NCBI GenBank assembly: GCA_029258835.1
Contig: JAPDJY010000074.1
Span: forward strand, 1-17,460
Direction of reading: 5' to 3'
Source of the DNA: Thermoproteota archaeon
GTDB taxonomy: Archaea > Asgardarchaeota > Jordiarchaeia > Jordiarchaeales > Freyrarchaeaceae
Length of the DNA stretch: 17,460 nucleotides
Below are positions 11,819-13,873 of this stretch, one piece after another (position 1 is the stretch's first letter; the number at the start of each line of letters is the position of its first letter). The position numbers were made by a program, and so were the translations under genes. The notes beneath the pieces were generated by a model, which saw nothing but the letters and a program-made list of their open reading frames with translations, was not told where the DNA came from and searched no databases.

Positions 11819-12125
11819 TCACCGCCTCAAGAACGCTAATACTAAGAAAGGGATGGTTTTTAGTAATGAAAAGCATAAGTTCCTTAAAAAGCTAGTGTTT
11901 CTTTAAGGCAGCGTGAAAGCGTCCACGTCCAACGTGAGCTCTTTTTAGAGAAAAATACGTTTGGTTACTTTAAGTTTGTTCTTTTTTCAGTTTTCGCCCT
12001 ACTTGCCTGCTCATAGATAAACTTTTTAGTCTCTCTTTAACATAGAATGTTTAAGATGTTTTCAAGATGTTTTTAAGGGGAGCGCTTCATTTTTAACGTT
12101 GTTTTGTTGATTGAGGTGGAGGCGG

Positions 12126-12560
12126 ATGAGCGGTAGTATTACGTCCAGTAGTTTTTTTAGAGAGTTAACAGCCTTAGTTGGTAAGACTATCAAGGTGAAT
12201 CTTGAGGGAGGAAAGGCGTATATTGGGAAGCTACGCGGGTATGAAGCGAACAGCTTAAGCTTATGTCTTACAGATGCAAAAGATGAAGAGGGAAACACTT
12301 ACAACAAAGTCTTCATTAAAGGAGAGAGGATAATTGAATTCTTCCAGACAGAGGAAAGCTTCCTAGGAGAGCTCTATGAAAGAATACGTAAGGTTTTCCC
12401 TCCAGGAGACGTTGAGTTCCTTGAGGATAATAACTTGATACTTGTAGTTAAGAAAGTGAAGGTAACAGAGAAGGGTGTGGAAGGAGAGGGGCCTATCGCG
12501 AGGAGAGTTAAAGAAATATTCGACGAGTTCATGTCTGAGAGAAAAGCGGCGATAACTTAG
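12126..12560 (+). CDS. Augmented Sm-like archaeal protein (SmAP3 type)
   Basis: Sm1/Sm2 motifs (VGKTIKVNLEGGKAYIGKLRGYE...LSLCLTDA; KVFIKGERI) plus a C-terminal domain (VFPPGDV...KVKVTEKGVEGEGPIARRV). ATG at 12126 follows GAGGTGGAGG. Confidence 0.85.
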   Translation: MSGSITSSSFFRELTALVGKTIKVNLEGGKAYIGKLRGYEANSLSLCLTDAKDEEGNTYNKVFIKGERIIEFFQTEESFLGELYERIRKVFPPGDVEFLEDNNLILVVKKVKVTEKGVEGEGPIARRVKEIFDEFMSERKAAIT

Positions 12561-12565
12561 CGTTT

Positions 12566-12888
12566 TCATCCATCGTCTACCGAGTGTACTCTGAAAAGAG
12601 CCACAGCCTCCCATTTTTTTCTAGGGCAGAGCTTTTCTTCGGCCTTTTTCATCCTAGAACGAATGCACCGTCTGCAAACTTCATGACGCGGGTCGAGTGG
12701 CCCAGCTTTAAGCTGTGTGGCCCTTCACAGGAAGCACAATGAAGGAGAAGAACGTTGAAACCTCCTATTTCCGCCTGAAGAAATTCTTCTTCATCATATT
12801 CTGGCTTAAAATCAGGCCAGACTTCGTAGAGGTCTGGTGCTTCAAGGACTTCTTTCAACCGCTTAAATAGTCTTTCGAAGCTAGTCAC
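12566..12888 (-). CDS. Intron-interrupted hypothetical protein, 100 aa after splicing (exons 12888-12717 and 12696-12566), CxxC-x10-CxxC
   Basis: Removing 20 nt at a BHB gives ...LLLHCASCEGPLDPRHEVCRRCIRSRMKKAEEKLCPRKKWEAVALFRVHSVDDG*. GAGGGGG RBS lies 7 nt before GTG, and the spliced stop lies 5 nt from the convergent SmAP3 stop. Confidence 0.8.
12697..12716 (-). other. Putative mRNA BHB intron (20 nt)
   Basis: G-GGCC-AC|A-CAGCT-TAA-AGCTG-GGCC-AC|T-C: 4-bp all-GC helix, two 3-nt bulges and a 5-bp inner stem. Confidence 0.8.
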
Positions 12889-13021
12889 TTTTACGCCCCC
12901 TCTAGCCTTTTTAGGTCAGGAAACCCTTAACTAATGCTACCTTTAAAATAGATTAGTCTTCTCAAGGGAATATTCTCGCAAAGTTAAAACGAGGAAGATA
13001 GAAGGGTTATAGGGGTTTAAG

Positions 13022-13873
13022 TTGAAGGAGCTAAAGCTAACGGTTGCGATTCCATCTTCTTTCCTTTCTGATGTTAAAGACTTAAGGTCTAAGACCGTTA
13101 AGGTCGGTTTCATAGCGAGAAGCGCAGCAATATTTCGAGTTGACAGAATACTGATTTATAGTGATGAGAGAACGCGAAGTGCTATGGAAGATGTAAACAC
13201 AATGAAAGACATACTCGCATACATGGAAACGCCACAATATTTAAGGAAGTACCTCTTTAAGAGGAAAGCGAGTTTGAAGTACGCAGGAATTCTTCCTCCC
13301 CTTGCTACACCGCATCATCCCTTGAAGAGCAAGCTTAAAGGCCTAAGGGAAGGCGAGGTAAGGGAAGGGGTGGTTGTGGCTAAGAAAGCAAAAGGAGTAC
13401 TCGTCGATATAGGGGTGGAGAAGCCGATATTACTTAAGGAGAAAGCGAACATAGGGGAGAGACTAACCCTTAGAATTACACGTAAAAATGGGAGAGTGGA
13501 GGGGAGACGGATAGGAAAACAGGAGGTAAAAGATTATTGGGGGTATATGGTTGAGGTGTCCGAGCATCCATTAGGGGATACGCTAAGGAAAAATAGAGAG
13601 TCCGTTAAGGTCCTTACTTCAAGATATGGAGAGCCATTAAGAGAAAAGTTAAATCAAATTCTTTCAGCATGGCGGAAAAAGAGAGAGATCCTTTTAGTTT
13701 TCGGAGGGCCTTACAGGGGAGTTTTAGACATGCTTTCAGAGGAAAGATACCGCCCAGAAGAAGTGTCAGACTTCATAGTAAACACTTTACCAAATCAAGG
13801 AACACGAACCGTTAGAACGGAGGAAGCTGTTCATGCCACATTAGCCATACTAAATTTATTTAGAGATCCCTAA
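13022..13873 (+). CDS. SPOUT-family RNA methyltransferase (MTH1/SPOUT1-like)
   Basis: VAIPSS, IARSAAIFRVD, YMETPQYLRK, AGILPPLATPHH, YWGY and NTLPNQGTRTVRTEEA motifs. Confidence 0.93.
   Translation: MKELKLTVAIPSSFLSDVKDLRSKTVKVGFIARSAAIFRVDRILIYSDERTRSAMEDVNTMKDILAYMETPQYLRKYLFKRKASLKYAGILPPLATPHHPLKSKLKGLREGEVREGVVVAKKAKGVLVDIGVEKPILLKEKANIGERLTLRITRKNGRVEGRRIGKQEVKDYWGYMVEVSEHPLGDTLRKNRESVKVLTSRYGEPLREKLNQILSAWRKKREILLVFGGPYRGVLDMLSEERYRPEEVSDFIVNTLPNQGTRTVRTEEAVHATLAILNLFRDP

What the first reader, a model, noticed from the sequence alone, without database searches (positions are those of the whole stretch)
12566..12888. Protein-coding gene interrupted by a 20-nt tRNA-type BHB intron
Seen: on the minus strand, after CASCEGP, the mRNA reads G-GGCC-AC|A-CAGCT-UAA-AGCUG-GGCC-AC|U-C. 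This is a textbook BHB with a 4-bp GC helix, two 3-nt bulges, a 5-bp inner stem and an outer G-C pair. Cutting after the second base of each bulge removes 12697-12716 and shifts the frame. The 79-aa ORF becomes a 100-aa protein with a paired CxxC-x10-CxxC motif (CASCEGPLDPRHEVCRRC), and its stop lands 5 nt from the convergent SmAP3 stop. Established: the archaeal splicing endonuclease cuts BHB motifs, and mRNA examples are rare, with crenarchaeal cbf5 the classic case. Inference: this lineage splices mRNA of a gene unrelated to cbf5, making a metal-binding protein dependent on the tRNA splicing machinery. Such genes would be misannotated as frameshifted.
Basis: partly seen in the sequence, partly recalled or inferred. 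Interest (0 to 1): 0.92.

Follow-up and report, generated by a model that had tools for sequence, protein, structure and literature searches.

The report
tRNA-type intron in Asgard protein gene
A small conserved zinc-finger-like protein gene of an uncultured Asgard archaeon (class Jordarchaeia) is split by a 20-base insert shaped like a tRNA intron, so the full protein can very probably be made only after the mRNA is cut and re-joined by the tRNA-splicing enzymes, a process published so far for hardly any archaeal protein gene.

Summary
On the minus strand, 12697-12716 is a 20-nt insert. It folds as a 4-bp GGCC/GGCC helix between two 3-nt bulges, plus a 5-bp inner stem. Cutting after the second base of each bulge joins a 79-aa ORF into a 100-aa protein. 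That protein aligns end to end with uninterrupted orthologues in Ca. Jordarchaeum, Odinarchaeia and Bathyarchaeia. Ten further distinct Freyarchaeia-type sequences carry an insert at the same codon. These inserts are 20, 21, 22 or 25 nt long, keep the fold through compensating changes, and all splice to G-P-L-D-P. In these sequences exon 2 varies mainly at third codon positions of the spliced frame. DNA contigs from four runs all contain the 20 nt. The genome encodes two EndA paralogues and RtcB. In the same genome I verified eight more protein genes split in the same way, including EF-1alpha, aIF2gamma and rpl44e, so this splicing must work here. No RNA data were available, so splicing is inferred and not shown. 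The outer helix is a single pair, so the motif is relaxed rather than textbook. Published precedent is cbf5 of Crenarchaeota and one Haloferax mRNA. Earlier notes of this scan report similar introns in other Asgard genomes. Verdict: a real intron and a new member of a known kind, within an apparently genome-wide system.

The parts
12717..12888 (-). Exon 1. It starts at GTG (12886-12888) and encodes 57 codons (MTSFERLF...HCASCEGP) plus the first base (C, 12717) of the split Leu codon, so the intron is phase 1.
   Evidence: The N-terminal half is 61-72% identical to orthologues in 9 other Jordarchaeia genomes.
12697..12716 (-). The 20-nt BHB intron, ACAGCTTAAAGCTGGGCCAC. The cuts fall between 12717/12716 and between 12697/12696.
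   Evidence: It is absent from orthologues in Ca. Jordarchaeum, Odinarchaeia and Bathyarchaeia. It is present at the same codon in 10 other distinct sequences.
12695..12723 (-). The relaxed bulge-helix-bulge motif. Outer pair G12723-C12695. Central helix 12719-12722 with 12699-12702. 5' bulge 12716-12718 (ACA). Inner stem 12711-12715 with 12703-12707. Loop 12708-12710. 3' bulge 12696-12698 (ACU).
   Evidence: MFE and centroid fold. 97.3% of cells are paired across 11 distinct sequences, against 11-55% when the partners are slid.
12566..12696 (-). Exon 2. TC completes the Leu codon. It then encodes DPRHEVCRRCIRSRMKKAEEKLCPRKKWEAVALFRVHSVDDG and ends with the stop codon at 12566-12568.
   Evidence: It is 55-65% identical to the contiguous C-terminal half of Jordarchaeum orthologues. 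Third-codon-position bias in the spliced frame is shown.
12111..12560 (+). The convergent neighbour, SmAP3-type Sm protein (LSM plus Lsm_C domains). It ends 5 nt from the stop of the spliced gene. This is context only and not part of the intron.
   Evidence: The same convergent neighbour is seen in Freyarchaeia-type contigs.

Best explanation
The 20 nt at 12697-12716 are a genuine archaeal bulge-helix-bulge intron inside a protein-coding gene. The pre-mRNA folds so that the exon-1 end GGCC pairs with the GGCC at the 3' end of the intron. This presents two 3-nt bulges on either side of a 4-bp helix, propped by a 5-bp intron hairpin. The genome's splicing endonuclease cuts after the second base of each bulge. 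This enzyme is inferred to be an (alpha-beta)2-like pair: a 190-aa catalytic EndA and a 308-aa paralogue that lacks the catalytic His. RtcB then joins the exons, giving ...GGG CCA C|TC GAC..., and a 100-aa protein with four invariant cysteines (CxxC-x10-CxxC) is translated. Unspliced mRNA would give only a 79-aa product with one CxxC and a non-conserved tail. Shown here: the motif, its exact position at the frame break, its conservation, the intact conserved spliced reading frame, and the presence of the enzymes. Inferred: the cleavage and ligation themselves. On origin, the intron most likely arose once in the ancestor of the Jordarchaeia and was precisely lost in the Ca. Jordarchaeum genus.
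For: (1): the motif sits exactly at the frame break, and excision gives a 100-aa ORF. (2): four Jordarchaeum species, three Odinarchaeia and about 70 Bathyarchaeia or other homologues are contiguous across G-P-[LS]-D-P and align with both exons to the C-terminus (KKW.AVALFR). (3): ten other distinct sequences (5 Freyarchaeia-type species genomes plus metagenome contigs) have an insert at the same codon. The inserts are 20, 21, 22 or 25 nt, so all three length classes modulo 3 occur. The 21-nt insert carries an in-frame TAA. All give G-P-L-D-P when cut by the same rule. (4): 97.3% of cells are paired, against 11-55% for slid partners. Pair 19-28 occurs as UA, UG, CG and AU, and four other pairs switch between a Watson-Crick pair and G-U. 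(5): in exon 2 of 8 intron-bearing sequences, variable columns by codon position of the spliced frame are 12/9/34. (6): contigs of 4 runs from 4 studies cover the intron without any indel. The two in-gene SNPs of a variant strain (12656, 12844) are synonymous in the spliced frame, and 12656 would be Leu>Pro in the unspliced frame. (7): two EndA paralogues and RtcB are encoded. (8): EF-1alpha, aIF2gamma, rpl44e (Pfam positions 1-36 | 38-75), ahcY, hypD, dnaG, gatE and an aconitase-family gene of the same genome carry 17-43-nt BHB inserts, and no uninterrupted P-loop copy of EF-1alpha or aIF2gamma was found in the motif and Pfam searches of this 95%-complete assembly, so such introns must be removed in this organism. 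(9) PMC11291895 and bioRxiv 10.64898/2026.10.13.758758: this class has the heaviest tRNA-intron load known, which implies a very active BHB splicing machinery.
Against: No RNA evidence exists: no RNA run holds this locus or its Freyarchaeia homologue. The outer helix is a single pair. The fold energy is unremarkable against shuffles. Covariation is modest: only one pair changes on both sides, and 39 of 500 shuffles reach the observed covariation score. The sequences are related. The 5' strand of the central helix is also under coding constraint (Gly-Pro). The assignment of catalytic and structural EndA subunits rests on my reading of the sequences only.
Confidence: 0.88

Rival explanations
1. 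The insert is a tolerated inactivating insertion: the gene is a pseudogene or makes only the 79-aa truncated protein, and the BHB-like fold is incidental.
For: Gene callers see only truncated ORFs of 61-79 aa. The fold energy is not exceptional. The protein has no known function.
Against: The insert persists at the same codon across two families. Both exons are kept open and conserved in the spliced frame. Exon 2 shows third-position bias. The unspliced tails are not conserved. Insert lengths of 20, 21, 22 and 25 nt all restore the same junction. EF-1alpha and rpl44e carry the same kind of insert.
Confidence: 0.04
2. The ribosome skips the 20 nt during translation. This could be gene-60-like bypassing from the CCA at 12718-12720 to the CCA at 12698-12700, or a programmed frameshift, without any RNA splicing.
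For: In this genome the take-off and landing sequences are identical (GGGCCAC...GGGCCAC), and a hairpin lies between them.
Against: Most relatives lack the repeat: the 3' copy reads GGGCTAA or GGGTCAG, so the landing codon does not match. The base pairing, however, is kept through G-U pairs. No stop codon follows the take-off codon. Gap lengths of 20-25 nt in all three frame classes cannot be served by one frameshift mechanism. The other interrupted genes of this genome show no such repeats.
Confidence: 0.03
3. The 20 nt are an assembly or sequencing artefact, or a duplication private to one strain.
For: The 7-nt direct repeat at both ends could suggest a slippage duplication.
Against: Logan contigs of four runs from four studies, two of them a SNP-distinct strain, all contain the 20 nt with no indel. 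Homologous inserts are present in ten other distinct sequences.
Confidence: 0.01

Closest known systems
cbf5 pre-mRNA intron of Crenarchaeota (Aeropyrum, Sulfolobus, Desulfurococcales; Watanabe 2002; Yoshinari 2006; Yokobori 2009, PMC2738675)
   Same: Both are short inserts in a protein-coding gene that form a relaxed BHB. Both are predicted to be cut by a hetero-oligomeric (alpha-beta)2-type splicing endonuclease and re-ligated. Both show patchy presence and absence among relatives, implying gain and precise loss. Gene callers mis-annotate both as frameshifted or truncated genes.
   Different: The host gene is different: an uncharacterised 100-aa Cys4 protein rather than an RNA pseudouridine synthase. 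The phylum is different (Asgard, class Jordarchaeia). The insert is only 20 nt. It is one of many interrupted genes in the genome rather than the sole case. cbf5 splicing is shown experimentally, whereas this one is inferred.
HVO_1309 mRNA of Haloferax volcanii, cut by the alpha2 splicing endonuclease (PMC7714728; discussed in PMC10485636)
   Same: It is an mRNA substrate of the archaeal tRNA-splicing endonuclease with a BHB motif, and the spliced form is the major RNA.
   Different: It occurs in a euryarchaeon with a strict-specificity enzyme. I did not examine that gene or the location of its BHB here.
BHB introns of tRNA genes in Jordiarchaeia and Atabeyarchaeia (PMC11291895; bioRxiv 10.64898/2026.10.13.758758)
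   Same: Same lineage, same motif class and presumably the same enzymes. About 2 or more intervening sequences per tRNA gene show a very permissive and busy splicing system.
   Different: Those papers treat tRNA genes only. In the text I searched they do not mention interrupted protein-coding genes.
IRE1/RtcB unconventional splicing of XBP1/HAC1 mRNA in eukaryotes
   Same: It is spliceosome-independent. A protein endonuclease cuts an mRNA at paired stem-loops, an RtcB-type enzyme ligates (in metazoa), and removal of the intron shifts the frame and changes the C-terminus.
   Different: The nuclease (IRE1 kinase/RNase) is unrelated and the RNA motif is different. It is a regulated stress response. 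There is no evidence of regulation here.
Translational bypassing in phage T4 gene 60
   Same: A short gap in a coding sequence with matched flanking codons and a hairpin (true in this genome only).
   Different: Relatives lack the matched codons, there is no stop after the take-off codon, and gap length varies. I rejected it as the mechanism.

Membership tests
Archaeal bulge-helix-bulge (splicing-endonuclease) intron | A 4-bp central helix flanked by two 3-nt bulges on opposite strands | tested here: met
   GGCC/GGCC with bulges ACA and ACU. It is kept in 11 of 11 distinct sequences, and all central-helix cells are paired.
Archaeal bulge-helix-bulge (splicing-endonuclease) intron | Flanking helices on both sides (h and h' of the strict hBHBh' motif) | tested here: inconclusive
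   The inner helix is 5 bp with 96% of cells paired. The outer helix is a single G-C or G-U pair with 91% paired. This is a relaxed form, as reported for cbf5 (PMC10485636). By published work it needs a broad-specificity enzyme (PMC5829648, PMC12397907).
Archaeal bulge-helix-bulge (splicing-endonuclease) intron | Cutting after the second nucleotide of each bulge yields a functional mature RNA | tested here: met
   The spliced ORF is 100 aa and the junction codon is Leu in all 11 sequences (CTC, CTT or CTA). This matches the Leu of intron-less Jordarchaeum orthologues. Shifting the cut by one base would give His or Ile instead.
Archaeal bulge-helix-bulge (splicing-endonuclease) intron | Structure maintained in evolution by compensatory change while loop sequence and length drift | tested here: met
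   one pair changes on both sides (UA/CG/AU/UG) and four pairs switch between Watson-Crick and G-U. Loops are 3-8 nt and intron lengths are 20-25 nt. The signal is modest because the sequences are close relatives.
Archaeal bulge-helix-bulge (splicing-endonuclease) intron | The host encodes the splicing endonuclease and the RtcB ligase | tested here: met
   there are two proteins with tRNA_int_endo_N plus tRNA_int_endo domains (G000 C1:11942-12511 and C6:39157-40080) and one RtcB (C1:78966-80273).
Archaeal bulge-helix-bulge (splicing-endonuclease) intron | Spliced RNA junction and/or excised intron observed; cleavage by EndA shown | not testable with these tools
   No RNA run on record holds the window locus or the Freyarchaeia homologue. 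An experiment is needed.
Cys4 zinc-binding small protein (host gene product; no curated family) | Four invariant cysteines arranged CxxC-x10-CxxC | tested here: met
   C51, C54, C65 and C68 are invariant in 59 homologues. There is no Pfam hit. The AlphaFold model has pLDDT 79 and no fold match in the PDB or the Atlas. Metal binding itself is not testable here.

The most novel reading that the evidence does not exclude
This intron is one element of a genome-wide, obligatory mRNA splicing system in Jordarchaeia. Tens of protein-coding genes are interrupted by 17-43-nt BHB introns, including genes for translation factors that are essential in other organisms. I verified 9 here, and a crude excess count suggests about 50. 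Expression of core genes in this close prokaryotic relative of eukaryotes would therefore depend on the tRNA-splicing endonuclease and RtcB. That would be a protein-only mRNA splicing layer that may also be used for regulation.
Probability: 0.7. Interest if true: 0.9.

Novelty: new member of a known kind. Interest (0 to 1): 0.75.

Why it matters
According to a 2023 review (PMC10485636), endonuclease-mediated mRNA splicing in archaea rests on two genes, cbf5 and HVO_1309. This locus adds a well-supported new host gene in a different phylum, the Asgard archaea. It does so in the class already known for the most intron-laden tRNA genes. Together with the eight other interrupted genes I verified in the same genome, it suggests that mRNA splicing by the tRNA machinery is routine here and not exceptional. 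This has three consequences. First, standard annotation mis-calls such genes as truncated or frameshifted; databases hold this protein as 61-79-aa fragments. That affects metabolic reconstruction and completeness estimates for these MAGs. Second, it provides natural minimal substrates for studying relaxed-BHB recognition by an (alpha-beta)2-like enzyme. Third, it bears on how intron-bearing protein genes and enzyme-based splicing could exist in the archaeal lineage nearest to eukaryotes.

Tried and rejected
RNA evidence: the look-up of sequencing runs listed no RNA holder for the window or for the Freyarchaeia homologue L028. Expression and splicing therefore could not be tested, and I spent the single read-laying run on DNA runs.

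Rfam and tRNA scans of the window found nothing.

A genome-wide scan for a BHB motif that merges two ORFs was swamped by chance hits at gene boundaries. It gave 6674 candidates against about 6420 in control bulge geometries. Adding a hexamer coding score did not rescue it.

A homology scan of ORFs from 400 kb of Jordarchaeum G001 against G000 found only a few unclear G000-specific insertions.

Requiring the junction to be conserved between G000 and G001 gave no excess over the control, 25 against 28. Only one convincing shared intron (hypD) emerged.

Only after adding the empirical A[AC] bulge signature did an excess appear, 147 against 93. This filter was chosen after seeing four examples, so the estimate of about 50 introns is rough.

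Protein function: Pfam, the ESM Atlas by features, Foldseek against the PDB and the Atlas by fold gave no credible relative.

Literature: seven full-text searches found no report of BHB introns in Asgard protein-coding genes. Subscription journals are not covered.

Full report
THE OBSERVATION. On the minus strand, positions 12723..12695 read G-GGCC-ACA-CAGCT-TAA-AGCTG-GGCC-ACT-C. The MFE and centroid folds of 12680-12735 both give the 4-bp GGCC/GGCC helix, a 3-nt 5' bulge and a 5-bp inner stem. The fold energy is not unusual: z = -0.35 against dinucleotide shuffles. Stability alone is therefore no argument. The ORF 12649-12888 encodes 79 aa. Removing 12697-12716 joins exon 1 (57 codons plus C) to exon 2 (TC, then DPRHEVCRRC...VDDG and a stop). 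The result is a 100-aa protein. Its stop codon (12566-12568) lies 5 nt from the end of the convergent SmAP3 gene (12111-12560; LSM plus Lsm_C). The one overstatement is 'textbook': the outer helix is a single G-C pair, so the motif is a relaxed BHB.

THE ORGANISM. Record titles of related loci place the window in the Asgard class Jordarchaeia (GTDB Jordiarchaeia). The genome, G000, is a 2.72-Mb, 91-contig MAG that is 95% complete. It is the only member of its genus in the collection. Its sister genus g2 is Ca. Jordarchaeum. The other family of the order, g3, is Freyarchaeia/Freyarchaeota and includes the complete genome CP147778.1. DNA holders of the locus are marine, sediment and hydrothermal-vent metagenomes.

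THE HOMOLOGY TEST. I searched the two exons separately in 41 related genomes and re-mapped them with tblastn.
- In four Ca. Jordarchaeum species and three Odinarchaeia, the two halves are contiguous in one frame.
- In five Freyarchaeia-type genomes, the halves are separated by 20 or 25 extra nucleotides at exactly the same codon, with a frame change.
- The printed sequences show a GGNCCNCTNGAY junction in the intron-less genes and GGGCC-ACA-...-GGCY-ANT in the interrupted ones.
- Spliced by the same rule, all interrupted genes give 100-109-aa proteins. These align end to end with the 102-108-aa uninterrupted orthologues, including the C-terminal KKW.AVALFR / PWKAVALCRIY block.
- A profile search found 84 homologues, mostly about 103-aa proteins of Bathyarchaeia, Odinarchaeia and Jordarchaeia. 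None carries a Pfam domain. The interrupted genes appear in the database only as 61-79-aa fragments ending ...CASCEGPHS. Their unspliced tails differ (HSLELG, HSS, HGF, HSC, HSRRLG and others), so the unspliced reading is not conserved.

MORE INTRON COPIES AND STRUCTURE. Contigs behind five of those fragments brought the total to 11 distinct intron-bearing sequences.
- Intron lengths are 20, 21, 22 and 25 nt, so all three length classes modulo 3 occur. The 21-nt version is in frame but carries TAA.
- Every sequence, cut after the second base of each bulge, gives G-P-L-D-P with a Leu codon (CTC, CTT or CTA). This is the residue found in the nearest intron-less orthologues.
- On the alignment, 97.3% of cells of the proposed structure form standard pairs, against 11-55% when the 3' partners are slid by 1-3 columns.
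- The last inner-stem pair occurs as UA, UG, CG and AU. Four other pairs switch between a Watson-Crick pair and G-U.
- Covariation is modest: only one pair changes on both sides, and 39 of 500 shuffles reach the observed score. This is expected for close relatives, and half of the central helix is also a Gly-Pro codon pair.

SELECTION ON EXON 2. Among eight Freyarchaeia-type sequences, variable alignment columns fall 12/9/34 on codon positions 1/2/3 of the spliced frame. There are 354 synonymous and 191 non-synonymous codon differences. Exon 2 is therefore under purifying selection in the frame that exists only after excision.

DNA REALITY. Logan contigs from four runs of four studies cover 12300-13100 without any indel. 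Two of them belong to a variant strain that differs at 12656, 12844 and 13063. By my reading of the codons, both in-gene changes are synonymous in the spliced frame (TCT>TCC and CTT>CTC). The change at 12656 would be Leu>Pro in the unspliced frame. An assembly artefact or a private duplication is excluded.

THE MACHINERY. The genome encodes two proteins with tRNA_int_endo_N plus tRNA_int_endo domains and one RtcB. The 190-aa EndA has Tyr, His and Lys at the expected spacing. The 308-aa paralogue lacks the His and has a long S/T/P-rich N-terminal extension. I read this as an (alpha-beta)2-like enzyme, but this is inference from sequence only. That enzyme type, and the epsilon2 type, are the ones reported to accept relaxed motifs (PMC5829648, PMC12397907). 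The (alpha-beta)2 type is associated with cbf5 introns (PMC10485636).

THE GENE IS NOT ALONE. Following a lead from earlier notes of this scan, I checked the genome myself.
- EF-1alpha (C27) lacks its P-loop in the main ORF. The sequence reads ...GHVDHG, then CGGC-AA|U-AUUCCCCGGG...CCCGGGGAAU-GCCG-AA|G. This is a 43-nt perfect BHB, and excision restores GHVDHGKST.
- aIF2gamma has a 30-nt BHB with an in-frame TGA at the same P-loop codon.
- Pfam coordinates of the separate exons confirm further cases. These are rpl44e (29 nt; profile positions 1-36 | 38-75 of 76), ahcY (23 nt; AdoHcyase 1-216, then the NAD domain from position 1), hypD (17 nt, also present in Jordarchaeum G001), dnaG (31 nt), gatE (30 nt) and an aconitase-family gene (29 nt).
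- No uninterrupted P-loop copy of EF-1alpha or aIF2gamma turned up in the motif and Pfam searches of this assembly, so these introns must be removed in vivo. That makes removal of the present one the default expectation.
- A crude estimate comes from ORF-merging BHB candidates with A[AC] bulges and four Watson-Crick central pairs: 147, against 93 in a control geometry. This suggests on the order of 50 such introns. The filter was chosen after seeing examples, and simpler scans were dominated by noise.

RIVALS.
- Pseudogene or tolerated insertion: contradicted by conservation of both exons, by third-position bias and by the non-conserved unspliced tails.
- Translational bypassing: suggested by the GGGCCAC direct repeat in this genome. 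However, most relatives lack the matching landing codon while keeping the pairing through G-U. Gap lengths also vary across frame classes.
- Assembly artefact: excluded.

EVOLUTION (inference). The introns of G000 and of Freyarchaeia are clearly homologous (ACAGC...GCTGGGCYA). The protein of G000 is closer to the intron-less Jordarchaeum proteins (68-72% identity in exon 1, against 61-65% for Freyarchaeia). The simplest history is one gain in the ancestor of the class and a precise loss in Ca. Jordarchaeum. This parallels the gain-and-loss pattern described for cbf5 (PMC2738675).

THE PROTEIN. It has four invariant cysteines (CxxC-x10-CxxC) plus invariant W-P, F, E, G-P, D, R-H, A, L and R residues. 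The AlphaFold model is moderately confident (pLDDT 79): helix, beta-hairpin, Cys loop, long helix, strand. There is no credible match in the PDB or the ESM Atlas. The intron lies between the two CxxC knuckles, so unspliced mRNA cannot encode the Cys4 site. In Odinarchaeia and Bathyarchaeia the orthologue lies immediately upstream of, and co-directional with, the PolD large-subunit gene DP2. In Jordarchaeia and Freyarchaeia it is convergent with SmAP3. Its function remains open.

WHAT IS KNOWN. The searchable literature reports endonuclease-dependent mRNA splicing in archaea for cbf5 of Crenarchaeota (PMC2738675) and for HVO_1309 of Haloferax (PMC7714728, PMC10485636). [quoted passage not shown] Papers on Freyarchaeia, Jordiarchaeia and Atabeyarchaeia describe an extreme load of tRNA introns (PMC11291895; bioRxiv 10.64898/2026.10.13.758758). 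In the text I searched they do not mention protein-coding introns. Seven full-text searches found no such report.

EARLIER NOTES OF THIS SCAN. Earlier notes record many similar candidates in this and other Asgard genomes. Two follow-ups claim RNA-derived contigs that lack the intron. I did not test those claims, and they are leads only.

VERDICT. This is a new host gene and lineage for a known kind of intron, embedded in what looks like a genome-wide system. Direct RNA or biochemical proof is still missing.

Noticed in passing
L056:2102-2144 (G000 C27:28832-28874, minus) and L059:2054-2083 (G000 C27:26080-26109, minus): EF-1alpha (43-nt insert) and aIF2gamma (30-nt insert with an in-frame TGA) are both split at the same P-loop codon, GHVDHG|K. 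Both use the same CGGC/GCCG central helix and an AA|U 5' bulge. The shared position in two paralogous GTPases may reflect a sequence-favoured insertion site or intron spread between paralogues.
   Followed up: partly
L078:202-230, L075:755-777, L079:990-1006, L074:281-311, L076:146-174, L077:426-455: Six further BHB inserts lie in protein genes of the same genome: rpl44e (29 nt), ahcY (23), hypD (17), dnaG (31), an aconitase-family gene (29) and gatE (30). For rpl44e, ahcY and gatE both exons hit one Pfam family at successive, non-overlapping profile positions; for hypD, dnaG and the aconitase-family gene only exon 2 has a hit. Most have A[AC]N bulges.
   Followed up: yes
G000 C40:1629-1826 (minus) and C13:12559-12718 (minus): Relative to Jordarchaeum G001 ORFs, a conserved gene of 589 or more aa carries a 196-nt GC-rich, hairpin-rich insert. 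Another gene carries a 140-nt insert. No clean BHB was evident by eye. These could be longer introns or other elements.
   Followed up: no
L033:862-1785 (G000 C6:39157-40080): The second EndA paralogue has an N-terminal extension of about 130 aa rich in S/T/P. It appears to lack the catalytic His. It is possibly a structural beta-like subunit with an unusual tail.
   Followed up: partly
L071:3001-3315 and L073:3001-3327: In Bathyarchaeia and Odinarchaeum the orthologue of the interrupted gene sits directly upstream of the PolD DP2 gene, separated by 12-16 nt on the same strand. This hints at a replication-related role. The linkage is absent in the window, where the gene is convergent with SmAP3.
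   Followed up: partly
G000 C2:156000-163000 and C16:51300-58500: These are dense arrays of short, mutually similar ORF segments. They matched the ends of the fetched G001 stretch many times in the tblastn scan, with roughly 75- and 225-nt offsets. They look like a repeat-protein or repeat-element region.
   Followed up: no
window 12656, 12844, 13063: A variant strain in two runs (X4, X5) differs by A>G, A>G and C>T. The two changes inside the gene are synonymous in the spliced frame.
   Followed up: yes
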